Positions 2,583 through 60,248 of a DNA stretch of 64,000 bases are shown piece after piece (position 1 is the stretch's first letter; each line of letters starts with the position of its first letter). The DNA lies in assembly GCA_003598025.1 (NCBI GenBank), contig QZKH01000002.1:206206-270205 (forward strand). The letters run 5' to 3'. The translations under genes were made by a program, and so were the position numbers. Below the pieces are notes generated by a model. The model saw only the letters and a list, made by a program, of their open reading frames with translations. It was not told the DNA's origin and did not search any database. Source of the DNA: Candidatus Omnitrophota bacterium (GTDB lineage Bacteria > Omnitrophota > Gorgyraeia > Gygaellales > Profunditerraquicolaceae).

Positions 2583-2661
2583 CATAGAGATGAGTTCATG
2601 GTTGATGGTTCGTGGACATATGAATATTTCTATGAACCATGAACTATGAACAATGAACTAA
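2583..2661. repeat. Palindromic heptamer-repeat element
   Basis: Forward units gagttcatggttgatggttcgtgg are followed by reverse units ctatgaaccatgaactatgaacaatgaactaat. One more ggttcatgg copy lies at about 2684. Confidence 0.7.
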
Positions 2662-4747: not shown

Positions 4748-7651
4748 ATGTCTTGGAAAATTGAAATAAAAGATAAAGCCGAGGTATTTGATGCAATCGG
4801 AGAGGGTATTAAGCGGGATATCTTTGACCTGGGTATTTACGACGTTGAAGATGTAAAGTTTATACAGATATATATAATAAAGGACAGCATTACCCCTGAT
4901 GATGTAAAGAAAATATGCGAGGAAGTCCTTTTAGACAGCGTTTCACAAGAGTACTCTTTTTCAAAAACCAGCCAAATAAACAATAGTTTCGGCAATAATA
5001 CCCACGTAGTCGAAGTAGCCTATAATCCGGGAGTTATGGACCCGGTTGAAGAGTCCAGCCTTAAAGCAATCAGGGACATAGGAATATCCGCGGTAACTTC
5101 CATAAAAACAGCTAAAAAATATATCATCAAAGGCAGGCTTAATAACCATCAGCTGAAAATAATCTGTGATAAATTATTATACAATAAGCTTATACAGCAT
5201 ATAGTCCCGCGCATGGCAGAAGACAAAATCCCGGCGGAAGTAAAATATCAATTCAGATTAGTTACTGTCGGGTTGCTAAAAGCCGGTGATAAGAAATTAA
5301 TGCAGCTTAGTAAAAGCGGGCAATTGTTTCTTAATATAAATGAGATGCGCGCAATTAAGGATTACTTCAGGAAGCTTAAACGCGATCCTACGGATTGTGA
5401 GCTGGAGACCATAGCCCAGACCTGGTCAGAGCATTGCTGGCATAAAACGTTCAGGGGTAAGATAGATTATAAACAGTCAACTGTGAACGGTGCACTGTGC
5501 ACTAAAAAGATTGATAATCTCCTTAAATCAACGATAATGAAGGTCACCAAAGAGCTTAATAAGCCCTGGTGCGTATCGGTATTCAAGGATAACTCAGGTG
5601 TCATAAAGTTTGATGACGATTACAACATTTGTTTTAAAGTAGAGACCCATAACCATCCTTCAGCACTTGAGCCTTTCGGAGGGGCAAATACCGGTGTGGG
5701 CGGGGTAATCCGTGACCCGTTAGGCACCGGTATGGGCGCAAAACCTATCCTTAATACCGACGTTTTTTGTTTTGCCAGCCCGGATTATCCTTTCAGTAAA
5801 TTACCGGCAGGTACGTTGCATCCGAAAAGAGTGATGAAGGGGGTTGTTTCAGGAGTCAGGGATTATGGTAACAAAATGGGGATCCCCACTGTTAACGGCG
5901 CCATCCTTTTTCATGACAGATTTGTGGGCAATCCATTAGTTTATTGCGGCACCGTCGGAATAATGCCTAAAGACAAAGCATTTAAAAACCCGAGGAAGGG
6001 GGATTTAATCGTTGTAGTCGGCGGCAGGACGGGAAGAGACGGCATACACGGTGCGACATTCTCTTCCGGCGAGCTTACCCATGAGTCTGAAACAATATCA
6101 AGCGGGGCAGTCCAGATCGGTAATCCCATACAGGAAAAAAAGATGGTTGATACTATCCTTAAAGCAAGGGATAGGGGTTTGTATAGCGCGATAACTGATT
6201 GCGGAGCTGGCGGGCTATCCAGTGCGGTCGGGGAAATGGGCCAAGACCTGGGAGCGGTTGTATATTTGGATAAAGTCCCGCTTAAATATAGCGGCCTCTC
6301 TTATATGGAGATATGGATCTCGGAGTCGCAGGAAAGAATGGTCCTTTCGGTGCCGAAAGAGAATATAGCAGAATTGATAGATGTTTTTACTAAGGAGAAT
6401 GTGGAAGCAGCAGTTATCGGAGAGTTCCCGGGTGATGATAAATTAAGGCTTTATTATAACGATAAGAAAGTCTGTGAATTGGAAATGGGTTTTCTGCATG
6501 AAGGGCTGCCTAAAATAGAAAAGAAAGCCGTATTTAAACAGCATATTTACAGGGAACCGAAGCTTCGCTGTCCAAAGGATGTGACTAAAACTTTAAAACA
6601 GCTTCTTTCTCATTATGATATCTGTTCCAAGGAGTGGGTTATAAGGCAATATGACCATGAAGTCCAGGGGGGGTCTGTTGTTAAGCCTCTTATAGGCAAG
6701 TTTAACGACGGCCCGGCTGATGCTTCAGTAAACAGGCCTTTATTAAATTCAAACAGGGGCATTATTTTATCTAACGGGATCAATTTCAGGTTCGGCCTAA
6801 TCGACCCTTACTGGATGGCTGCTTCATGCATTGACGAGGCATTAAGGCAGATAATCGCAGTCGGCGGATCACTTGGGAGGGTCGCATTATTAGATAATTT
6901 TTGCTGGGGCAATCCTGATAAGCCTGATAGGCTTGGAGGTTTAGTGCGCGCTGCTTTAGGATGTTATGATATTGCAAAAGGTTTTGGCCTGCCTTTTATA
7001 TCGGGTAAAGACAGCCTGTATAACGAATTCACGGTCAATAAAAGATCCATCTCTATCCCGGGTACTTTACTGATTTCTGCCATTGCAGTCATGCAGGATG
7101 TATCAAAAGCCGTTTCGATGTACCTTAAGAAGCCGGGCAACCTCGTGTATATCGTAGGAGAAACTTTTAATGAGTTGGGAGGGTCACATTACTATGATAT
7201 TCTTGGTTATGTAGGCAATACCGTACCGAAGGTAGATGTTATTAAGGCAAAGAAAACATTTGTCGCTTTAAGTAAAGCTGCCTCTAGCGGCCTGGTAGAA
7301 TCTATCCATGATTGTTCTGACGGAGGCTTAGCCGTGAGTTGCGCCGAGATGTCTTTTGCTGGGAACCTTGGCATGAGAGTTTTCTTATCCGAGGCGCCGT
7401 TTAATAACAGCAAGGCAAGGCTTAGTAATGATTGTGTGCTTTTTTCCGAATCTAATTCCAGATTTATAGTAGAAGTGAGCCGCGAAAACCAAAAAGCTTT
7501 TGAAAAAACGCTTAAAGGCATTGTTTACGGCTTAATCGGATGCGTAACTAAAGAGGGTATATTGGAAGTCCATGGTTTAGACGGTAAAACATGTATCAGG
7601 GCATCTGTAGATGAGCTTAAGACGGCCTGGAAGGAGCCTTTGCAATGGTGA
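4748..7651 (+). CDS. purL: Phosphoribosylformylglycinamidine synthase, PurS-PurL fusion
   Basis: An N-terminal PurS-like segment of about 80 aa is followed by the PurL motif HNHPSALEPFGGANTGVGGVIRD and duplicated AIRS domains, for 967 aa in total. A separate purQ lies downstream. Confidence 0.9.
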   Translation: MSWKIEIKDKAEVFDAIGEGIKRDIFDLGIYDVEDVKFIQIYIIKDSITPDDVKKICEEVLLDSVSQEYSFSKTSQINNSFGNNTHVVEVAYNPGVMDPVEESSLKAIRDIGISAVTSIKTAKKYIIKGRLNNHQLKIICDKLLYNKLIQHIVPRMAEDKIPAEVKYQFRLVTVGLLKAGDKKLMQLSKSGQLFLNINEMRAIKDYFRKLKRDPTDCELETIAQTWSEHCWHKTFRGKIDYKQSTVNGALCTKKIDNLLKSTIMKVTKELNKPWCVSVFKDNSGVIKFDDDYNICFKVETHNHPSALEPFGGANTGVGGVIRDPLGTGMGAKPILNTDVFCFASPDYPFSKLPAGTLHPKRVMKGVVSGVRDYGNKMGIPTVNGAILFHDRFVGNPLVYCGTVGIMPKDKAFKNPRKGDLIVVVGGRTGRDGIHGATFSSGELTHESETISSGAVQIGNPIQEKKMVDTILKARDRGLYSAITDCGAGGLSSAVGEMGQDLGAVVYLDKVPLKYSGLSYMEIWISESQERMVLSVPKENIAELIDVFTKENVEAAVIGEFPGDDKLRLYYNDKKVCELEMGFLHEGLPKIEKKAVFKQHIYREPKLRCPKDVTKTLKQLLSHYDICSKEWVIRQYDHEVQGGSVVKPLIGKFNDGPADASVNRPLLNSNRGIILSNGINFRFGLIDPYWMAASCIDEALRQIIAVGGSLGRVALLDNFCWGNPDKPDRLGGLVRAALGCYDIAKGFGLPFISGKDSLYNEFTVNKRSISIPGTLLISAIAVMQDVSKAVSMYLKKPGNLVYIVGETFNELGGSHYYDILGYVGNTVPKVDVIKAKKTFVALSKAASSGLVESIHDCSDGGLAVSCAEMSFAGNLGMRVFLSEAPFNNSKARLSNDCVLFSESNSRFIVEVSRENQKAFEKTLKGIVYGLIGCVTKEGILEVHGLDGKTCIRASVDELKTAWKEPLQW

Positions 7652-14066: not shown

Positions 14067-15356
14067 ATGCGAATATTAGTTATAGGTTCGGGAGGCAGAG
14101 AGCACGCGCTTGTCTGGAAAATAGCGCAGTCTAAATCGGTAGATAAGATTTTCTGTGCTCCCGGTAATGCGGGGATCGCGCAACAGGCAGAGTGTATCGA
14201 TATTAAACCGGATGACATAACCGGGTTGTTGGATTTTGCCAGGAGGCAGAATGTTGACCTTACAGTAGTCGGGCCGGAAGTGCCTTTGTCGTTAGGTATA
14301 GCTGATGAGTTCAAAAAATATAAGTTAAATATTTTCGGGCCGAATAAAGCTGCTGCACAATTGGAATCAAGCAAGGTATTTTCCAAACAGATGATGGCCA
14401 GGTATCAGGTCCCGACTGCAGAGTTCAGGGTTTTTCAGGACTTAGATGAAGCAAAAAGGTTTATTTCTGTCAGGGGAGCGCCCTGCGTAATCAAGGCAGA
14501 CGGCCTTGCGCAAGGCAAGGGAGTATTTGTCGCAAAGACGGTGGAAGAAGCAAACCAGGCAGCTTCTTTAATACTCAGGGATAAAATTTTCGGTAATTCC
14601 GGTAAGAAGATTATAGTCGAAGATTGCCTGGAAGGTCCGGAAGCATCCATATTGGTATTTACTGATTCAGAATATGTTATACCCCTTGCTTCAAGCCAGG
14701 ACCATAAAAGGATATTTGATAATGACCAGGGGCCTAATACAGGGGGTATGGGCGCGTATTCTCCTGCGCCAGTGGTTGATAAGGCAATGTTCGATCTTAT
14801 AATGCAGAAAGTAATATACAAGATGGTTAAAGGCTTATTAAATGAAGGTATCGAATACCAGGGTGTTTTATATGCCGGGATAATGATTACTAAAGATGGT
14901 CCAAAGACCCTGGAGTTCAATGTCCGTTTCGGGGACCCGGAGACACAGGCGATCCTGCCAAGGTTAAAAACCGACATTGTCGAGGTTATGTTGGCTTGCG
15001 CAAAAAAACAGCTTTCAAAAGTCAAGACATTGGATTGGGATAACCGTAGTTGTGTATGCGTTGTGTGTTCCTCAAAAGGTTACCCGGGGGCTTATGATAA
15101 AGGCAAAGAGATAAAAGGCATAGAAGAAGCTGAGAAAATAGAAGGGGTGAAGGTTTTTCATGCGGGAACAAAGTTTTTGCCGTCCACAGTCCACAGTCCA
15201 CAGTCCACTTGCGTTACTGATGGAGGAAGGGTGCTGGGTGTCAGCGGCTTAGGAACCACGATTAAAGAAGCGATAAATAAAACTTATCAGGGAGTCTCAA
15301 AAATTCACTTTGATGGTATGCATTACCGTAAAGATATTGCCTCAAAGGCGCTATAA
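14067..15356 (+). CDS. purD: Phosphoribosylamine-glycine ligase
   Basis: The N-terminus MRILVIGSGGREHAL matches GARS, and the ATP-grasp core is recognisable. An in-frame heptamer-repeat insertion near the C-terminus is noted separately. Confidence 0.9.
   Translation: MRILVIGSGGREHALVWKIAQSKSVDKIFCAPGNAGIAQQAECIDIKPDDITGLLDFARRQNVDLTVVGPEVPLSLGIADEFKKYKLNIFGPNKAAAQLESSKVFSKQMMARYQVPTAEFRVFQDLDEAKRFISVRGAPCVIKADGLAQGKGVFVAKTVEEANQAASLILRDKIFGNSGKKIIVEDCLEGPEASILVFTDSEYVIPLASSQDHKRIFDNDQGPNTGGMGAYSPAPVVDKAMFDLIMQKVIYKMVKGLLNEGIEYQGVLYAGIMITKDGPKTLEFNVRFGDPETQAILPRLKTDIVEVMLACAKKQLSKVKTLDWDNRSCVCVVCSSKGYPGAYDKGKEIKGIEEAEKIEGVKVFHAGTKFLPSTVHSPQSTCVTDGGRVLGVSGLGTTIKEAINKTYQGVSKIHFDGMHYRKDIASKAL
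15182..15209 (+). repeat. Four tandem heptamers (gtccaca x3 + gtccact) in-frame inside purD
   Basis: Seen directly. It encodes STVHSPQST within the usually compact PurD C-terminal loop. The unit is one mismatch from the intergenic GTTCACA heptamer family. Confidence 0.7.
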
Positions 15357-18618: not shown

Positions 18619-19101
18619 ATGAAGAAAACAAAAAGACTTATCCATTACAGGCCGACATGGGACGAATATTTTATGGAAGTCGCAAGCCTTGTCTCCAAGA
18701 GGGCGACTTGTTTAAGGAGGCGGGTTGGGGCAGTCCTGGTAAAAGGCAAGAGGATACTGGCTACCGGTTATAACGGCGCTCCTTCAGGCCTGAGTCATTG
18801 TCTGGATGTGGGTTGCTTGAGAGAAAAACTCGGCATACCCTCGGGCCAGCGCCATGAACTATGCCGCGGCCTGCATGCCGAACAGAACGTATTGGTCCAG
18901 GCAGCACTATATGGGATTAGCACTCAAAACAGCACCCTTTATGTGACCAATCAGCCTTGTATTATCTGCGCTAAAATGCTGATTAATGCCGGCATCAAAG
19001 AAATAGTTATCAGTGATGGTTATCCTGATGAGATGGCACAGGACTTCTTAAAGAAGGCCAAGGTGAAGGTAAGGAAGGTAAAGCCGGTTCATAGTTCATA
19101 G
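18619..19101 (+). CDS. dCMP/cytidine deaminase family (ComEB-like)
   Basis: The zinc motifs HAEQN and PCIICAKML are present. The last five codons and the stop are encoded by the heptamer repeat. Confidence 0.8.
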
Positions 19102-19152
19102 TTGATGGGAAAAACTGTGTCTATGAACCATGAACCATAAACTATGAACTAA
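19086..19152. repeat. Palindromic heptamer-repeat element
   Basis: Seen directly: ggttcatagttcatagttgatgg ... ctatgaaccatgaaccataaactatgaactaat. It overlaps the 3' end of the deaminase gene and abuts the nrdR start. Confidence 0.7.
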
Positions 19153-23178: not shown

Positions 23179-23601
23179 TTGTTTTTCAGCGGCATAATTT
23201 TCTTTTCAGCCTGTATGATTTCAAGTCTTGGCTGTGCTAAAAACACGCACAAGAAAGTCTGTATAAAGAATGCCTGTATATCGGCTGAAATTGCGGATAC
23301 AGAAGGCAAAAGAACCAGGGGTTTAATGTTCCGGAAGGGTTTAGGCGGGGATGCAGGCATGCTCTTTGTTTATGAAAAAAATGTGCGTCCGTCATTTTGG
23401 ATGAAAAACATGCGTTTTCCGTTAGATATAATCTGGATAGATAAGGACCATAGGATAGTTGATGTTGTTTCTGATGTTCAGCCCTGCACCGATGATTGCG
23501 CATTACTGGTTTCGGATAGAGAGGTGCAATTCATACTTGAGGTAGAGTCGGGATTTGTAAGAAGGCATAATATAAAGCTGGGAGAACTTGTTGAGTTTTA
23601 A
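23179..23601 (+). CDS. DUF192 family protein, secreted
   Basis: A signal peptide is followed by the motifs RTRGLMFR, GMLFVY and LDIIWID. Confidence 0.55.
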   Translation: MFFSGIIFFSACMISSLGCAKNTHKKVCIKNACISAEIADTEGKRTRGLMFRKGLGGDAGMLFVYEKNVRPSFWMKNMRFPLDIIWIDKDHRIVDVVSDVQPCTDDCALLVSDREVQFILEVESGFVRRHNIKLGELVEF

Positions 23602-25472
23602 CCTTCCCGCAGTTGTTTTTCCGCATCCACAATATCACGGTTGATCACGCGTATTGTTTCATGGATTTTTTCTTTTAAGACATGTGAAATAGGGCAGGTG
23701 GCTATTTCTCTCAACACCTGTACGCTCATCCTGAAATAGCGTATAACTTCTCCTTCGTCGGTATCGGTCATCTGGAGGGTTTTGTTAAAGTTAGTTCCTC
23801 TTAACCAGGCTTCCATGCAGGCGCTTAAGTGAAAGAATGGCTGTTTGCTTACGGGATAGATTCTATAACGGCGTTCTTTTTCTTTTATCTTCTCAAAGAT
23901 ATCTTCGCATATATGCCTTATCCTTTTAGTGTTTTTTGATAAAGTAAGGATATGCTGGTTTTTCCTCGGCTCAAATACAACTCCCGCGGCAATGATCCCT
24001 AAGCCAAATTCATCCAGTTGCTCAAGGACCTGCTCCTCAAATAATTCAGAAAGCACCAATTCATACCCGTATACAGACTTAGCAAATTTCCCTTTTTCCG
24101 TGAGATGGCCGTCGTAGATATAGCCCATATCCTTAAGCAATTTTATCTTTGCGTCTATCAGCCTTAACGCCTCTCTTTGGTCATGGCTTTTGGATTGAAA
24201 ATAATGGAATGAAAGCGGGTATACCCTGTGGACTTCGTCTTTATATCTTTCGTAAAGGTTTAATATGGTAGCGTAGGAATTATTCAGCTGGCTCCTTACT
24301 TCTTCAGGCCTGCCGTAAATGATGCGCTTCGTATCTTCGGGTGATATCCTGTTAGGATTTACGCGGCAGTAGACAAAACCCTCTTTATCTATTCCTCTTC
24401 TTCCTGCGCGGCCCGCCATCTGGTAAAAATCCCTGGTTTTTAAGTTCCTGAAGAACCTGCCGTAGTATTTGCGCAGGTCGTCGAACATAACGCTGCGGCT
24501 GGGCATATTTATCCCCAGGGCAAAGGTCTCGGTGGTAAATATTATTTTTAAAAGCCTGCTGGTAAAAAGCCTTTCAATCACTTCTTTTAAGGTTGGCAGC
24601 ATGCCAGCATGATGGTAGGCGATACCTTTTTGTACAAGGGTAAATATTGCCTGGGCGGATTTTTCGTGTGTCAGGCTGAATTTTTCACAGAGCAAATTAA
24701 AAAGAGCAATGATTTTTTCTTTCTCCTGCGAGCTCAGGAAATTGTACCCTGATAATTCAAAGGCAAGCTCTTCGGCCCTGCGCCTGCCGAATACAAAATA
24801 AATTCCGGGCAGGCCGTCTTTTTGCTTTACGTAATTTATCAAAGCATTAAATTTGTTTGGGCGCGGATTCTTCGTCCTCCTGATCTTATTGATGTTGTCC
24901 AGTATCTCATTATTCGATTGGAAGAAAAAATGCAGGGGGACGGGGCGTTTTTCCTCAATGACCATCTTGGTCGGTTTTTTGCGTATTGTTTCTATCCATT
25001 GGGCAAAGAATTTTATATTTGGTATAGTGGCTGATAGGCCCAGGAGATTTAAATGTTCGGGCATAAAAATCAACGATTCTTCCCAGACTGTGCCGCGTTC
25101 AGGGTTATCAATGTAGTGTATCTCATCAAAGATCACCCAGGAATATTTTTTCAGGCTTAGCGGCTCCTCAAGTATCTTATTGCGCAGGATCTCCGTGGTC
25201 ATTATAAGCACAGGGGCATCCGGGTTAATGGATACATCGCCGGTAAGTATCCCTATTTTTTCTGAAAAGTTATCGTAGAAATCGCGGAATTTCTGGTTAG
25301 AGAGCGCTTTTATCGGTGCGGTATAAATTACGCCGGTATTTAATTTTATGGACTCGCTTATTACATGCTCTGCTATTGCTGTTTTGCCTGCGCCTGTTGG
25401 AGCCGAGACTATTACAGAATAGCCCTGATTTATGTAATTTATAGCTTCTTCTTGAAACCGGTCATATATCAT
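23598..25472 (-). CDS. Ski2-like DEAD/DEAH-box superfamily-2 helicase
   Basis: Walker A APTGAGKT, motif II DEIHY and the Ski2-type motif AYHHAGMLP are present, with arginine-finger QxxGRAGR. Confidence 0.8.
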   Translation of the reverse strand: MIYDRFQEEAINYINQGYSVIVSAPTGAGKTAIAEHVISESIKLNTGVIYTAPIKALSNQKFRDFYDNFSEKIGILTGDVSINPDAPVLIMTTEILRNKILEEPLSLKKYSWVIFDEIHYIDNPERGTVWEESLIFMPEHLNLLGLSATIPNIKFFAQWIETIRKKPTKMVIEEKRPVPLHFFFQSNNEILDNINKIRRTKNPRPNKFNALINYVKQKDGLPGIYFVFGRRRAEELAFELSGYNFLSSQEKEKIIALFNLLCEKFSLTHEKSAQAIFTLVQKGIAYHHAGMLPTLKEVIERLFTSRLLKIIFTTETFALGINMPSRSVMFDDLRKYYGRFFRNLKTRDFYQMAGRAGRRGIDKEGFVYCRVNPNRISPEDTKRIIYGRPEEVRSQLNNSYATILNLYERYKDEVHRVYPLSFHYFQSKSHDQREALRLIDAKIKLLKDMGYIYDGHLTEKGKFAKSVYGYELVLSELFEEQVLEQLDEFGLGIIAAGVVFEPRKNQHILTLSKNTKRIRHICEDIFEKIKEKERRYRIYPVSKQPFFHLSACMEAWLRGTNFNKTLQMTDTDEGEVIRYFRMSVQVLREIATCPISHVLKEKIHETIRVINRDIVDAEKQLREG

Positions 25473-25475
25473 AGT

Positions 25476-25567
25476 ATTAGTTCATGGTTCATAGTTCATA
25501 GATTAGTTCACAGTGCACAGTTCGCAGAGCACAGATTAGTTCATGGTTCACGGTTCATGGAGTACAG
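25476..25567. repeat. Heptamer-repeat array, forward orientation (about 13 units; attagttcaYRG sub-repeats)
   Basis: Seen directly between the helicase start and the downstream minus-strand ORF. Confidence 0.7.
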
Positions 25568-26380
25568 TTATTGAATTTGTTTTATAAATTTAATAAATCT
25601 TCTTGTATAGAGCGTGTAAAAGAATGAAGTGTCATTAACATATTGACCCTCGGAGATACGGCTTGAAGACTTATTCCAATATAGAACATTTGAAAACAAG
25701 CCTATATTTCTAAGTTCCCTTACCGCTGAATCAGTTAATTCAGGGGAGTATTGGAATTTCTGATGTGTTTCTGTTACGACATCTCTTATTATAATCTGCG
25801 GTAATGAAATTGTACTCTCTAATTGTTTATCATACTTTTCATAAATAGCATATAGTACATTTAATGCCACCTTGCTTAAATGCCTAATTAAATCAATAAA
25901 TCGTAATTTTTCATCTTCTGAAACATTCCTATCGGAAGCATTAAATAGGGCATTAACAAATATTTCTTGCTTGTCCATATATTCTGCGTTTAATGCTGTC
26001 TCCATTATTTTAATACAAAACAACTGTCCTTCTTGTGTATTAAAATATTCCTGCAGTTTATTTTTGAATTCGTCATTAAGGTTATTAATTCTATTTTCAA
26101 GATGCCCCAACATTTGAATTCGAGTTTGTTCTTTTATGGAATCTTGACATTTTTCTAATCCTTCTACCAAATCCCCCCATAGCGGGACCCTTTTTGCGAA
26201 GCTTTTTACAGCTCCCCAAAGTCCTGATTTTACGGCTAAGAGCCGGTTTGTTCTAATGTTTTCTTTATTCATCAGTTCGTTTACAAAGTTATTTGTAGAG
26301 ACTATGGCGTGAAGGAACAATAAATTTGGACCCCCCACCATTCTTTCTTTAGTTACTTTTAACCATGAACTATGAACCAT
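25568..26380 (-). CDS. Hypothetical protein, AT-rich, no recognised domain
   Basis: A 270-aa ORF on the minus strand lies in a visibly AT-rich segment bracketed by heptamer arrays of opposite orientation. The start codon lies inside the right-hand array. Confidence 0.5.
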   Translation of the reverse strand: MVHSSWLKVTKERMVGGPNLLFLHAIVSTNNFVNELMNKENIRTNRLLAVKSGLWGAVKSFAKRVPLWGDLVEGLEKCQDSIKEQTRIQMLGHLENRINNLNDEFKNKLQEYFNTQEGQLFCIKIMETALNAEYMDKQEIFVNALFNASDRNVSEDEKLRFIDLIRHLSKVALNVLYAIYEKYDKQLESTISLPQIIIRDVVTETHQKFQYSPELTDSAVRELRNIGLFSNVLYWNKSSSRISEGQYVNDTSFFYTLYTRRFIKFIKQIQ

Positions 26381-26393
26381 CAACTATGAACTA
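26361..26393. repeat. Heptamer-repeat array, reverse orientation (aaccatgaactatgaaccatcaactatgaactaa)
   Basis: Seen directly. It is the inverted partner of the 25476..25567 array. Confidence 0.7.
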
Positions 26394-26397
26394 ACCT

Positions 26398-26570
26398 ATC
26401 CCACAGCTATAATCCCGGGATAAGTTCGGTCCTATAACTTACGTTCTACGCCTACGGCGTATCCGTAAGTTATGACCTCACAAATCCCACAGCTATAATC
26501 CCGGGATAAGTTCGCGCATACAATTTACGTTCGCCGCCTTTGGCGCCTCCGTAAATTGTGCGCTCACTTA
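26398..26570 (+). ncRNA. Two tandem 86-bp structured units (candidate small RNA genes or recombination sites). Each has a conserved 31-nt leader containing TATAAT and the palindrome ATCCCGGGAT, followed by a hairpin whose stems co-vary.
   Basis: The leader atcccacagctataatcccgggataagttcg is identical in both units. The unit A stem pairs ATAACTTACG with CGTAAGTTAT, and the unit B stem pairs ACAATTTACG with CGTAAATTGT. These differ by two compensated base pairs (T-A to C-G and C-G to T-A). The strand is not determined. Confidence 0.4.
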
Positions 26571-26585
26571 TTATATTCTAAAAAC

Positions 26586-26614
26586 ATTGATTTATCTATT
26601 ATTAAATAGTAGAA
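26586..26614 (+). promoter_or_regulatory. Sigma70-like promoter (TTGATT-N17-TAGAAT) for the downstream gene
   Basis: The spacing and hexamers are seen directly. An AAGGGG RBS follows, about 4 nt before the ATG at 26623. Confidence 0.35.
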
Positions 26615-26622
26615 TAAGGGGC

Positions 26623-27174
26623 ATGAGTTATGAGGTGGCGCTGAATAAGGCATGGCTAGATATTGCTAACCTTAATGTTACCAAGAATTTATCGGTAAAA
26701 TTTCTTGGTGATGAGTATTCGGTTGATACAGAAAACAGGGTAATCCTGTCTTTGGCTTGTAACGTAAAAACGAAAGACTATAGGACAATACTTATCCTGC
26801 ATTATTTGAAGAAAAAAATATCAGGTTTGCCTTTATTAAGCGGTAACTGGAAGAATTTCAGAGAGATAGCCTTGATCGAAGGCTATCACGATACATTCAG
26901 GAACAGGGTGCTTAAGCCGTTAATAAGGAAATACGGCAGGAACCCGGAAGGAATTTCTGATTCGATTAAGCGCTTCAAAGCCAGAATGGTTAATAAGGCA
27001 GATGTGGCTTTTGAGGTTGAGGTTTTTGAGGGTGTTCCTGTCTTGATAGAGTTATGGCGCCAGGACGAAGAGTTTGAGGCAGAGGCAAATCTCCTTTTTG
27101 ACGCGAGTATTACCGATATTTTCTGCATAGAAGACATTGTGGTATTGGCTGAGACAGTAGCAGCAGCACTTTAG
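26623..27174 (+). CDS. Hypothetical protein (possibly DUF3786-like)
   Basis: A 183-aa ORF begins MSYEVALNKAW. The family assignment is from memory only. Confidence 0.4.
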   Translation: MSYEVALNKAWLDIANLNVTKNLSVKFLGDEYSVDTENRVILSLACNVKTKDYRTILILHYLKKKISGLPLLSGNWKNFREIALIEGYHDTFRNRVLKPLIRKYGRNPEGISDSIKRFKARMVNKADVAFEVEVFEGVPVLIELWRQDEEFEAEANLLFDASITDIFCIEDIVVLAETVAAAL

Positions 27175-33699: not shown

Positions 33700-34560
33700 A
33701 TGCAAAGGTATATCGAGAAATTCATCAGGTATCTGGAGATCGAAAAGAACTATTCTGCGCATACGCTCTTGAATTATAAGCTCGACCTGGAGCATTTCTT
33801 CAGTTTCCTGGGGTCATCTCCGGTTGAAGGCGTGGATTATATAACTCTGAGGAAATACCTTGCAACACTCAAAGATGCAAGCCTCGGCAACAGGTCCATA
33901 GGCAGGCATTTATCTACCCTGAGGACTTTCTTTAAATTTCTTACCCGCGACGGATTCATAAAAACTAACCCGATGCTCAGTCTTTCCAGCCCTAAAATAG
34001 AAAAGCACCTTCCCCAGTTCCTTACCGAAGAGGAGGCCAGCCGGCTTATAGAGGCGACTGTCGCAAAGGATGAATCAGGCTTAAGGGACAGGGCCATACT
34101 TGAGACTTTCTATAGCACAGGCATAAGGATCAGCGAGCTTGTTTCGCTTGATACCGATGATATTGATTTTATAAGCGGAGTGGTAAAAGTCGAAGGTAAA
34201 GGCAAAAAAGAGAGGATCGTGCCTATTGGTGATAAGGCGTTGTCTGCGATAAGGCAGTATATAGATAAAAGAAAAAAAGAATTTGATGCCGTATTCTTGA
34301 ATAAAAACGGCAAGCGTATCAGTACGCGGGGAGTAAGGAGTATAGTTGCAAAATACATCAAGGCATCGGGTTTAAAACACGGGGTCTCGCCGCATACTAT
34401 CCGGCATTCTTTCGCCACGCACCTTTTAAACCGCGGGGCAGATTTAAGAAGCGTGCAGGAACTCCTGGGGCATGTAAACCTTGCCACAACCCAAATCTAT
34501 ACCCATCTTACTACCGACAGGCTGAAAAATATTTATGACAAGGCGCATCCGCGGGCTTAA
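33700..34560 (+). CDS. Tyrosine recombinase XerC/XerD family
   Basis: The motifs HTIRHSFATHLL and LLGH..L.TTQIYTH are present. The gene is adjacent to topA and dprA, so it looks housekeeping. Confidence 0.85.
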   Translation: MQRYIEKFIRYLEIEKNYSAHTLLNYKLDLEHFFSFLGSSPVEGVDYITLRKYLATLKDASLGNRSIGRHLSTLRTFFKFLTRDGFIKTNPMLSLSSPKIEKHLPQFLTEEEASRLIEATVAKDESGLRDRAILETFYSTGIRISELVSLDTDDIDFISGVVKVEGKGKKERIVPIGDKALSAIRQYIDKRKKEFDAVFLNKNGKRISTRGVRSIVAKYIKASGLKHGVSPHTIRHSFATHLLNRGADLRSVQELLGHVNLATTQIYTHLTTDRLKNIYDKAHPRA

Positions 34561-47180: not shown

Positions 47181-47270
47181 TTAGTTGACAGTTCACAGAG
47201 CACAGATTAGTTCACAGTTCACTGTTCACGGATCACAGAACATGGCTGTGAACTAATCTATGAACTAAAA
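47181..47270. repeat. Palindromic heptamer-repeat element (GTTCACR units)
   Basis: Forward units gttcacagagcacagattagttcacagttcactgttcacgg are followed by reverse units ctgtgaactaatctatgaactaa. Confidence 0.7.
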
Positions 47271-57819: not shown

Positions 57820-57892
57820 TTAGTTCATAGTTCATAGTTAATGGTTCATAGTTCATAGATTAGTTCACGGTTCACAGAGCATAGTTCATAGA
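57819..57892. repeat. Heptamer-repeat array, forward orientation (about 10 GTTCATA units)
   Basis: Seen directly after the GT9 stop. Confidence 0.7.
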
Positions 57893-57953: not shown

Positions 57954-58271
57954 TTGGAGGAAATTATGGATAATAAAAAGATATATAATAATGACTTGAT
58001 AGTGTTTTCGATTTTGGGGAGCTTATGCCTTTTGCCGTCTTTATTAATGCTATACTATTTTTTTGTTTCAGAATCCAGCCAACCGCCGTATCTATTAAGA
58101 ATGCTTTTTGAGATTATGCTTTCATCAAAAACCTATGCCCCTATGTGGTCAGAGGTTGATAAAGATCTTTTACTATACCGAGCTATTATTTGGATGGCTT
58201 TAGGTATCGGATTGATAGGTTTTGGAATTTATAAATATAAAAAGGAATCGGTTATTAAGACTAGTTTATAG
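57954..58271 (+). CDS. Small AT-rich hypothetical membrane protein (2 TM)
   Basis: A 105-aa ORF lies between two forward heptamer arrays. Its stop codon is supplied by the next repeat. Confidence 0.4.
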   Translation: MEEIMDNKKIYNNDLIVFSILGSLCLLPSLLMLYYFFVSESSQPPYLLRMLFEIMLSSKTYAPMWSEVDKDLLLYRAIIWMALGIGLIGFGIYKYKKESVIKTSL

Positions 58272-58383
58272 TTGATGGTTCATAGATCATAGAAATAGAT
58301 AAAGTAGGTAGTCACAAAGACACACGACACAAGGACACAAAAATTAGTTCACGGTTCACAGTACACGGAGCACAGTTAATGCA
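58263..58383. repeat. Left terminal inverted repeat of cassette (heptamer units + about 75-nt core aaagtaggtagtcacaaagacacacgacacaaggacacaaaaa)
   Basis: By-eye alignment with the reverse complement of 60092..60248 shows the about 75-nt core differing at only 3 positions. The flanks are more diverged. Confidence 0.75.
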
Positions 58384-60091: not shown

Positions 60092-60248
60092 CTGTGACCT
60101 TGTGTCTTTGTGACCAACTACTCTAGTTATTACTGTGCTCCGTGAACCGTGATCTGTGAACTCAAGCTTTTTGTGTCCTTGTGTCGTGTGACTTTGTGAC
60201 TACCTACTTTAGCTATTTCTATGAACTATGAACCATCAACCATGAACC
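60092..60248. repeat. Right terminal inverted repeat of cassette (reverse-complement heptamer units + core + an extra partial copy of the gtgtc/gtgac motif)
   Basis: See the left TIR. Its outer end is ctatgaactatgaaccatcaaccatgaacc. Confidence 0.75.

What the first reader, a model, noticed from the sequence alone, without database searches (positions are those of the whole stretch)
26398..26570. Tandem pair of 86-bp structured units with a conserved palindromic leader and compensatory stem changes
The two adjacent units share an identical 31-nt leader, atcccacagcTATAATcccgggataagttcg, which contains a perfect 10-bp palindrome ATCCCGGGAT. After the leader the units diverge in sequence but keep a hairpin. 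The unit A stem pairs ATAACTTACG with CGTAAGTTAT, and the unit B stem pairs ACAATTTACG with CGTAAATTGT. That is two base pairs changed on both strands (T-A to C-G and C-G to T-A), and the loops keep a small internal palindrome. Covariation of this kind implies selection on structure, whether in RNA or in single-stranded DNA. The units lie in a divergent promoter region between an AT-rich minus-strand ORF and a plus-strand ORF, next to a heptamer array. Candidate roles are paired small RNAs, a riboregulator, or folded recombination sites (attC-like logic of conserved structure with free sequence).
Basis: seen in the sequence. Interest (0 to 1): 0.7.

Follow-up and report, generated by a model that had tools for sequence, protein, structure and literature searches.

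The report
REP-like palindromic repeat family of Omnitrophota
The two 86-base units are a rare tandem copy of a previously uncatalogued, widely dispersed hairpin repeat of Omnitrophota bacteria that sits at gene borders like the REP elements of E. coli, so it is a new repeat family and not a locus-specific riboregulator.

Summary
Two 86-bp units (26398-26483, 26484-26569) share an identical 31-nt leader. Each then forms a ~60-nt imperfect hairpin, and four stem pairs differ between the units in a compensated way.

The hairpin is not local. A skeleton pattern found at least 120 metagenome contigs; the few flanking proteins that carry names are Omnitrophota. In 113 aligned units, 98% of stem cells pair and 11 of 19 pairs covary. 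No Rfam family matches, and no viral contig carries it.

The usual form is an inverted heterodimer around a variable central hairpin. The window's "palindromic leader" is a minimal version of that central hairpin. Tandem pairs such as this one are rare (4 of 61).

Unit ends abut gene ends, tRNA 3' ends or start codons, and often supply the stop codon. Composites 85-95% identical occur at unrelated loci without target duplications. One is present or absent between near-identical strains.

Neither flanking gene is tied to the unit. The behaviour matches REP/BIME-type interspersed palindromes. However, the GTAG/CGTC tag is missing, no RAYT-like enzyme was found, and the stem is much longer. G-T pairs are almost absent.

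Whether RNA or single-stranded DNA folds is unresolved. The readings as paired sRNAs, a DUF3786 riboregulator or attC sites are not supported.

The parts
26398..26483 (+). Unit A: a 31-nt leader plus a hairpin. This is the distal, more degenerate copy; its outer helix is lost because its 3' end runs into the leader of unit B.
   Evidence: The covariance model R1 scores it 55.1 bits, E = 3.9e-12.
26484..26569 (+). Unit B: an identical 31-nt leader plus a canonical hairpin. Its orthologs are L003:13-83 and L006:655-718.
   Evidence: Model R1 scores it 72.2 bits, E = 9e-17.
26398..26421 (.). Leader hairpin of unit A, ATCCC(N14)GGGAT, which includes the palindrome ATCCCGGGAT at 26412-26421. It is a minimal form of the family's variable central hairpin (CCC.../...GGG).
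   Evidence: The fold. Family comparison (GGGRTAAR conserved, the rest variable).
26484..26507 (.). Leader hairpin of unit B, identical to that of unit A, with the palindrome at 26498-26507.
26421..26480 (-). Main hairpin A: TAAG-T-(TC)-G+3 bp-(2-nt bulge)-10 bp-(TTC/TC loop)-mini-stem-loop ... CTCA. On the minus strand the unpaired parts read GA/GA, GA/GAA and a G..A loop.
26507..26570 (-). Main hairpin B, with the complete outer helix TAAGT/ACTTA. Its CTCA-CTTA end is the outer border of the element.
   Evidence: The border is defined by the empty site in L004 and by homology breaks between composites.
26587..26615 (+). Context, not part of the element: the DUF3786 promoter-like site TTGATT-17-TAGAAT. 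It is conserved in relatives that lack the unit and lies downstream of unit B.
25473..26566 (.). Context: the stretch present in the window but absent from relatives in which the helicase and DUF3786 genes are 6-58 bp apart. It holds heptamer arrays, the orphan 270-aa ORF and units A and B.

Best explanation
The two units are a head-to-tail pair of a dispersed, REP/BIME-like palindromic repeat family of Omnitrophota.

**The unit.** It is about 65 nt: GGGR-TAAR-T-(TC)-G+3 bp-(2-nt bulge)-10 bp ending in TTACG-(TC-type loop)-variable mini-hairpin-CGTAA...-C-(TC)-A-YTTA. That gives a 19-bp interrupted stem whose sequence is free but whose pairing, bulge and mismatch loops are fixed.

**The usual form.** The normal element is an inverted heterodimer: an 'A' unit and a 'G' unit around a variable, perfectly paired central hairpin, 130-250 bp in all.

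**Shown.** The elements are copied to unrelated intergenic sites without target duplication. They persist at gene borders, where their TAAR-TGAG end often supplies the stop codon.

**Inferred.**
- The strand that folds is the one complementary to window (+). There the loops become tandem G.A mismatches and GNA/GNRA loops.
- That hairpin is recognised by a structure-specific protein, either an unidentified hairpin-dependent (HUH/Y1-like) mobilising enzyme or a host factor.
- When transcribed, the hairpin acts like a REP, as a 3'-end or intercistronic stabiliser or attenuator.

**In this window.** The pair probably arose by local reiteration of one unit together with 31 nt of flank. One hairpin was later exchanged or converted by another family member. 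The pair lies upstream of the DUF3786 promoter and has no demonstrable locus-specific role.
For: **A widespread family**
- 129 distinct units show invariant spacing.
- The flanking proteins that carry names are Omnitrophota.

**Structure**
- 98.2% of stem cells pair, 11 of 19 pairs covary, and slid controls give 22-43% pairing.
- TAAR on the 5' side is conserved although the scan pattern did not require it, and its R covaries with Y.

**Arrangement**
- 54 of 61 adjacent pairs are inverted with leader sides facing; 4 are tandem.
- 42 of 53 pairs are A/G heterodimers (p = 1e-6).

**Dispersal**
- Composites 85-95% identical over 90-160 nt sit at loci with no tblastx similarity in the flanks. Homology stops at TAAATGAG and CTCACTTA, and there is no target duplication.
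- A 222-nt composite is present in L006 and absent in L004. Their right flanks are 100% identical.
- Density varies from 1 site in the 64-kb window to 4 in the 7.4 kb of L078.

**Gene borders**
- The stop codon lies inside the element end in about 40 units. Six units abut tRNA 3' ends, and about 35 lie 3-18 nt before a start codon.
- G-variant ends prefer gene stops (29 against 7, p = 9e-4).

**Folded strand**
- G..A-closed tri- and tetraloops make up about 60% of apical loops on the complementary strand.
- That strand is the more stable one in 103 of 113 units.

**Match to published REP behaviour** (PMC3733652)
- Dimers are mostly head-to-head or tail-to-tail, and head-to-tail is rare.
- Heterodimers and structured spacers are common.
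- REPs lie close to ORF 3' ends, and their termini provide stop codons.
- Clusters are reiterated in tandem together with flanking DNA.
Against: - No GTAG or CGTC tag is present.
- No RAYT/Y1 transposase was found, and no recurrent neighbouring gene appears among 785 flanking ORFs. The transposase test is weak.
- The stem (19 bp) and the unit (65 nt) are well outside the 20-40 bp given for REPs.
- G-T pairs are almost absent (about 12 of 2147 cells), whereas they are common in REPs.
- The same unit position upstream of DUF3786 in three lineages (window, L003, L006) could mean long-term vertical retention and not mobility.
- The window genome shows only this one site in 64 kb.
- There are no expression data of any kind.
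Confidence: 0.65

Rival explanations
1. The family is a purely RNA-level motif, such as a phylum-specific 3'-end, terminator or processing hairpin, or a 5'-UTR stabiliser. It is selected independently at each locus and is not mobile.
For: - Covariation is strong.
- GNRA and GNA loops lie on one strand.
- Among single units between co-directional genes, 26 of 40 have that strand as the sense strand, and 20 of those start at the stop codon.
- Units follow tRNA 3' ends.
- A and G variants show polarity relative to gene starts and stops.
- Inverted dimers give the same RNA order, GA-type hairpin then central hairpin then UC-type hairpin, whichever way they are transcribed.
Against: - G-U pairs are no commoner than A-C mismatches.
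- One third of single units, and all dimers between divergent genes, have the 'wrong' strand as sense.
- No U-tract follows either hairpin.
- The variable central hairpins are 85-95% identical at non-homologous loci, which indicates copying and not convergent evolution.
- In the window the units lie upstream of the conserved DUF3786 promoter.
Confidence: 0.2
2. The composite is a conventional cut-and-paste MITE, and the two inverted units are its terminal inverted repeats, bound as duplex DNA by a DDE transposase.
For: - The outer ends are inverted (TAARTGAG ... CTCAYTTA).
- The whole composite is the unit of insertion or deletion between L004 and L006.
- Composites occur at unrelated loci.
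Against: - No target-site duplication is seen at nine compared borders.
- The two 'repeats' of one element differ in stem sequence, and each is self-complementary with compensated changes. Duplex recognition does not explain this.
- Conserved mismatches and the bulge need a folded strand.
- No transposase gene lies in the flanks.
Confidence: 0.07
3. The units are two small RNA genes, each with its own promoter (the TATAAT in the leader), or a riboregulator of DUF3786 or of the minus-strand ORF.
For: - A sigma70-like match ATGACC-16-TATAAT lies in the leader of unit B.
- The predicted hairpins are stable.
Against: - Promoter-like matches in the region are no more frequent than in shuffles (5 against 6.6).
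- The leader and its TATAAT are unique to this locus.
- There is no terminator.
- Family members abut unrelated genes in both orientations.
- DUF3786 relatives and homologs of the orphan ORF lack the unit.
- PADLOC gives no hit for the ORF, and its Abi_alpha match is insignificant (E = 0.013).
Confidence: 0.03
4. The units are attC-like folded recombination sites of an integron-like cassette system.
For: - They are imperfect palindromes with free stem sequence, an unpaired central spacer-like loop and extrahelical bases.
- In tandem copies the leader is identical and the hairpin differs.
Against: - There are no RYYYAAC/GTTRRRY core sites.
- Copies are mainly inverted pairs 20-100 bp apart, not same-orientation sites that separate ORF cassettes.
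- The only tyrosine recombinase found is a housekeeping XerD-like gene next to topA, 7 kb away.
- Flanking genes are ordinary housekeeping genes.
Confidence: 0.03

Closest known systems
REP / BIME elements (GTAG- and CGTC-tagged repetitive extragenic palindromes; PMC3733652)
   Same: - Both are interspersed intergenic imperfect palindromes with sub-families that differ by complementary stem changes.
- Both occur as singletons and, mostly, as inverted dimers, often heterodimers. Spacers are 20-100 bp and can carry their own stem-loops.
- Tandem dimers are rare, and clusters are reiterated together with flanking DNA.
- Both lie within a few bases of ORF 3' ends and can supply the stop codon.
- Neither makes a target duplication.
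   Different: - There is no GTAG or CGTC terminal tag. Here both feet carry fixed motifs, TGAG...CGAA on the folding strand.
- The unit is about 65 nt with a 19-bp interrupted stem, against 20-40 bp with 6-13-bp stems.
- G-T pairs are nearly absent.
- No RAYT was found.
- The host phylum, Omnitrophota, is not among the REP hosts found in the literature searched here.
IS200/IS605 ends and their non-autonomous derivatives (PATEs)
   Same: - Recognition would rest on imperfect hairpins with conserved bulges or mismatches on one strand.
- There is no target duplication and there are no true terminal inverted repeats (general knowledge of the family).
   Different: - In IS200/IS605 the hairpins at both ends lie on the same strand. 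Here the two units are inverted.
- No tnpA or tnpB gene lies nearby.
- No conserved target tetranucleotide was identified.
Integron attC sites
   Same: Structure is conserved while sequence is free, with an internal unpaired spacer and extrahelical bases.
   Different: - There are no R''/R' core sites, no cassette arrays and no intI.
- Arrangement as inverted pairs dominates.
Correia/ERIC-type bacterial MITEs
   Same: They are short, dispersed, palindromic intergenic elements at gene borders that can affect transcripts.
   Different: - Those elements have duplex terminal repeats and TA target duplications, and copies within a genome are near-identical.
- Here each end is its own covarying hairpin, and no duplication is seen.
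Intrinsic (Rho-independent) terminators
   Same: A stable hairpin directly follows stop codons and tRNA genes.
   Different: - There is no U-tract.
- The skeleton is fixed in sequence and length.
- Units also occur directly upstream of start codons and between divergent genes.

Membership tests
REP (GTAG/CGTC-tagged palindromic repeats) | An unpaired terminal GTAG (or CGTC) motif at one end of the palindrome | tested here: not met
   The feet are TTCG/CTCA, which read TGAG/CGAA on the other strand, in all 129 units. No GTAG or CGTC is present. Definition taken from PMC3733652.
REP (GTAG/CGTC-tagged palindromic repeats) | Small size (20-40 bp) with a 6-13-bp stem | tested here: not met
   The unit is about 65 nt, with 19 pairs in three stacked helices plus a mini-hairpin.
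REP (GTAG/CGTC-tagged palindromic repeats) | High-copy extragenic distribution, near ORF 3' ends, as singletons and inverted dimers | tested here: met
   At least 120 contigs carry it, with about 1 further site per 30 kb of flank. 54 of 61 pairs are inverted, and the stop codon lies inside the element end in about 40 units.
REP (GTAG/CGTC-tagged palindromic repeats) | An associated RAYT (Y1 transposase) gene flanked by the repeats | tested here: inconclusive
Whole genomes could not be searched.
Integron attC | R''(RYYYAAC)/R'(GTTRRRY) core sites bracketing the palindrome | tested here: not met
   The unit ends are TAAR-TTCG and CTCA-YTTA.
Integron attC | Same-orientation sites that separate gene cassettes next to intI | tested here: not met
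   Inverted pairs 8-224 bp apart dominate. The only tyrosine recombinase is XerD-like, beside topA.
DDE-type MITE | Terminal inverted repeats plus a target-site duplication | tested here: not met
   No direct repeat flanks the borders in the three aligned groups of composites. The empty site in L004 shows no duplication logic.
Any Rfam 15 RNA family | A covariance-model score at or above the family's gathering threshold | tested here: not met
   Only a tRNA is found in the window. The best match at the units is IMES-3, 20 bits against a threshold of 55, E = 0.1. Six other loci with units gave nothing at the units.
Type III toxin-antitoxin (RNA repeats upstream of a toxin gene) | Tandem RNA repeats linked to a ToxN/AbiQ-like toxin gene, and conserved together with it | tested here: not met
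   The ORF has no PADLOC or Pfam hit. Its six homologs lie in other contexts without units.
Intrinsic terminator | A GC-rich hairpin followed by a U-tract | tested here: not met
   The scan finds no terminator-like site at the units. The sequence after the hairpin is CTCAYTTA on one strand and CGAAYTTATCCC on the other.

The most novel reading that the evidence does not exclude
The family is more than a REP look-alike. On this reading it is a phylum-wide boundary element. Its purine-loop strand carries tandem sheared G.A pairs and GNA/GNRA loops and forms a hairpin read by a dedicated, still unknown protein. That protein would either be a new kind of hairpin-dependent mobilising enzyme with inverted hairpin ends, or a non-canonical system that defines transcript ends (stop codon, then hairpin, then central hairpin, then hairpin, then start codon) in a phylum whose terminators are uncharacterised.
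Probability: 0.25. Interest if true: 0.75.

Novelty: new variant of a known kind. Interest (0 to 1): 0.55.

Why it matters
Omnitrophota are uncultured, and little appears to be known about their non-coding DNA. This family is a 65-nt element with 11 covarying pairs, fixed non-Watson-Crick motifs and nucleotide-exact contacts with stop and start codons, and it is absent from Rfam.

- It gives a ready-made marker for gene and operon borders, and for strain-level insertion or deletion polymorphism in MAGs.
- It is a test case for how REP-type repeats arise outside Proteobacteria without a known RAYT.
- It is a defined ligand for fishing out the protein that reads it.
- It warns annotators that ORF ends and starts at these sites are shaped by the repeat.

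Tried and rejected
- **Leader as the conserved part.** An 18-mer of the leader found one hit in 185,579 species genomes, and that hit lies inside a coding sequence of a Chitinispirillaceae MAG. It is a chance match.
- **Link to the minus-strand 270-aa ORF (type III TA or Abi idea).** There are no family hits. Its homologs sit elsewhere, without units or heptamer arrays.
- **Link to DUF3786.** The unit is present in the window, L003 and L006. It is absent in L004/L005 and in the loci of P0010 and P0005.
- **K-turn reading of the G.A loops.** Rejected by inspection, because the bulge is 4 bp away from the tandem G.A.
- **DnaA-box or TA-duplication readings of the ends.** Rejected by inspection of the borders.
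- **Phage origin.** No viral contig matches.
- **Recurrent cargo or transposase.** Clustering of 785 flanking ORFs gave only housekeeping families, the largest with 7 members.
- **Literature.** Searches for Omnitrophota/Omnitrophica with palindromic, hairpin or REP terms found nothing relevant.

Full report
**1. The observation**

The 31-nt leader occurs exactly twice in 64 kb, at 26398 and 26484; none is expected by chance even with three mismatches allowed. TRF reports a period of 86 and 1.9 copies. Each unit folds into a long hairpin that is much more stable than shuffled sequence, on either strand (z = -4.8 to -5.8).

All 17 differences between the units lie in the 55 nt after the leader (0 of 31 against 17 of 55, p = 1.9e-4). 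Eight of them form four fully compensated pairs in the main stem.

**2. Local context**

Names attached to homologs identify the organism as a Candidatus Omnitrophota MAG. The source contig is JGI Ga0394679_087383, 305 kb.

- To the left, on the minus strand, lie a Ski2-like helicase (23598-25472) and an orphan 270-aa ORF (25568-26380). The ORF is bracketed by inverted heptamer arrays.
- To the right lie DUF3786 (26623-27174), an SNase-like gene and others.
- In relatives the helicase and DUF3786 genes are only 6-58 bp apart. The whole stretch 25473-26566 is therefore extra DNA in this genome.
- A promoter-like site, TTGATT-17-TAGAAT (26587-26615), is conserved upstream of DUF3786 in relatives. 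It lies downstream of unit B.

**3. The leader is local and the hairpin is not**

An 18-mer of the leader has no true match in one genome per 185,579 species. The single hit lies inside a coding sequence.

The DUF3786 upstream regions of two relatives do hold homologous hairpins. L003 (83% protein identity) carries the counterpart of unit B with further compensated changes: AAGT/ACTT to AAAT/ATTT, GCGC/GCGC to GTGC/GCAC, and GCCGCC/GGCGCC to GCCACC/GGTGGC. L006 carries two units in inverted orientation.

The five units share invariant spacing: TTCG-N10-TTACG ... CGTAA-N8-CTCA. No viral contig matches and no Rfam family matches. The flanking proteins that carry names are Omnitrophota.

**4. Structure**

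An alignment of 113 distinct units (A1) supports one 19-pair interrupted helix.

- 98.2% of cells pair, against 85.6% in shuffles and 22-43% when partners are slid.
- There are 288 two-sided changes against 88, and 11 pairs covary.
- Positions the scan pattern left free pair in 95-100% of units with up to four Watson-Crick types.
- The 5' motif GGGR-TAAR was not in the pattern, yet it is conserved, and its R covaries with the Y of CTCA-YTTA.

The fixed non-paired features are a 2x2 loop (TC/TC), a 2-nt bulge on one side, a second loop (T)TC/TC, and an apical TTC-type loop closed by a covarying 2-4-bp mini-stem.

On the complementary strand these features become tandem G.A mismatches and G..A-closed loops (GAA, GCA, GTA, GTAA, GCAA, GAGA, GATA), about 60% of apical loops. 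That strand is the more stable one in 103 of 113 units with RNA parameters and in 99 of 113 with DNA parameters.

G-T pairs are as rare as A-C mismatches, about 12 of 2147 cells. Wobble pairing is therefore not tolerated on either strand. This fits poorly with selection on one RNA strand alone. The strictly kept asymmetric features nevertheless require a folded single strand.

**5. Arrangement and position**

Model R1 finds only the two units in the window. It finds 210 units in 121 loci.

- Of 61 adjacent pairs, 54 are inverted, with leader sides facing and CTCA-YTTA ends outward. Four are tandem and one has the opposite inverted orientation.
- The space between the partners is a perfectly paired hairpin of variable sequence whose base is CCC.../...GGG. 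The window's ATCCC...GGGAT leader is a minimal version of it.
- Pairs are heterodimers of an 'A' and a 'G' variant in 42 of 53 cases (p = 1e-6).
- The outer ends touch genes with nucleotide precision. TTA is the reverse complement of the stop codon in about 38 units, or TGA of TGAG is the stop. Six units abut tRNA 3' ends, and about 35 lie 3-18 nt before a start codon.
- Among single units between co-directional genes, 26 have the purine-loop strand as sense, and 20 of those start at the stop codon. Fourteen have the other orientation.
- G-variant ends prefer gene stops (29 against 7, p = 9e-4).

**6. Dispersal**

- Composites 85-95% identical over 90-160 nt, including the variable central hairpin, occur at loci whose ±1.2-kb flanks show no tblastx similarity.
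- In alignments, homology stops at T(T/C)AAATGAG and at CTCACTTA, and no target duplication is visible.
- L006 carries a 222-nt composite where L004 has four bases. Their right flanks are 100% identical over 654 nt, and their left flanks are 94.8% identical.
- Density ranges from one site in the 64-kb window to four in the 7.4 kb of L078. Beyond the site that brought each locus in, there is about one further site per 30 kb.
- No neighbouring gene family recurs among 785 flanking ORFs. A weak tblastn test for an IS200-like transposase was negative.

**7. What it is not**

- Homologs of the orphan ORF lie in other contexts without units. The ORF has no defence-system or Pfam assignment.
- DUF3786 loci of other relatives lack the unit.
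- There are no attC core sites and no cassette arrays. The only tyrosine recombinase is a XerD-like gene beside topA, 7 kb away.
- There is no U-tract terminator.

**8. Comparison with known systems**

Di Nocera et al. (PMC3733652) describe REP families as follows.

- They are interspersed palindromes with complementary stem variants.
- They occur mostly as inverted dimers, often heterodimers. Spacers are 20-100 bp and may carry stem-loops.
- Tandem dimers are rare, and clusters are reiterated together with flanking DNA.
- They sit next to ORF 3' ends, and their termini supply stop codons.

All of this behaviour is seen here. The window's tandem pair with its duplicated 31-nt flank fits the 'reiterated with flanking DNA' case.

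The defining GTAG/CGTC tag and the 20-40 bp size are not met. RAYT association is untested at genome scale, and G-T pairs are absent, unlike in REPs. I therefore file the family as a new variant of the REP/BIME kind and not as a member of the known REP superfamilies.

**9. Mechanism and confidence**

*Shown.* This is a structurally constrained palindromic repeat. It is dispersed, sits at gene borders, and is not specific to this locus.

*Inferred.* The purine-loop strand is the one that folds. A structure-specific protein reads it. When transcribed it behaves as a REP-like hairpin at 3' ends or between cistrons.

*Unresolved.* It is not known whether RNA or single-stranded DNA folds, or which enzyme is involved. 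It is also unclear why tandem copies keep identical leaders while their hairpins differ by about 30%. Conversion by other family members is a guess.

Confidence in the REP/BIME-like reading is 0.65, and in a purely RNA-level motif 0.2. The other readings together come to about 0.13.

Noticed in passing
window 2630-2660, 5480-5503, 15182-15208, 19087-19151, 25478-25560, 26361-26393, 47183-47238, 57821-57891, 58313-58376, 60140-60248: Arrays of heptamers (GTTCATR/GTTCACR and relatives) fill many intergenic sites. They bracket small orphan ORFs: the 270-aa ORF (inverted arrays) and a 105-aa membrane-like ORF at 57954-58271 (direct arrays). Homologs of the 270-aa ORF in other Omnitrophota have no such arrays. 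This looks like a second, genome-specific repeat system.
   Followed up: partly
window 26587-26625: The DUF3786 promoter-like site TTGATT-17-TAGAAT is conserved in relatives. Its -10 box ends 7 nt before the ATG at 26623, so the mRNA may be leaderless or nearly so.
   Followed up: partly
L004:2466-3600 vs L006:13-1365: Two contigs encode an identical DUF3786 protein. They are 100% identical to the right of the repeat site and 94.8% identical to the left. The repeat therefore marks a recombination breakpoint between strains, or possibly an assembly join.
   Followed up: partly
L068:7042-7118, L116:3149-3222, L083:4610-4683, L067:2820-2892, L105:10066-10141: In one sub-family the 2-nt bulge is replaced by an extra mini-hairpin, GGC-GAA-GCC or GGCC-GTAA-GGCC on the purine-loop strand. 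This turns the unit into a three-way junction.
   Followed up: no
L020:3639-3656, L057:824-841, L049:2989-3006, L010:1733-1750, L035:1465-1482: One class of central hairpin is CCTTGACAT-N3-ATGTCAAGG. TTGACA then lies 17 nt from TAAATT/TAAGTT on both strands, which could be a bidirectional sigma70-type promoter inside the composite.
   Followed up: no
L008:3781-3800, L010:1653-1672, L053:11225-11244, L057:899-918 and about 10 other loci: Start codons lie only 3-6 nt beyond the CTCA-YTTA end, with no Shine-Dalgarno sequence in between. Orthologous genes in L008 and L010 (N-terminus MIARI) share this layout although the hairpin sequences differ.
   Followed up: no
window 33712-34557: A XerD-like tyrosine recombinase (Phage_integrase plus the SAM-like N-terminal domain) lies directly after topA. 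It looks like a housekeeping gene unrelated to the repeat.
   Followed up: yes
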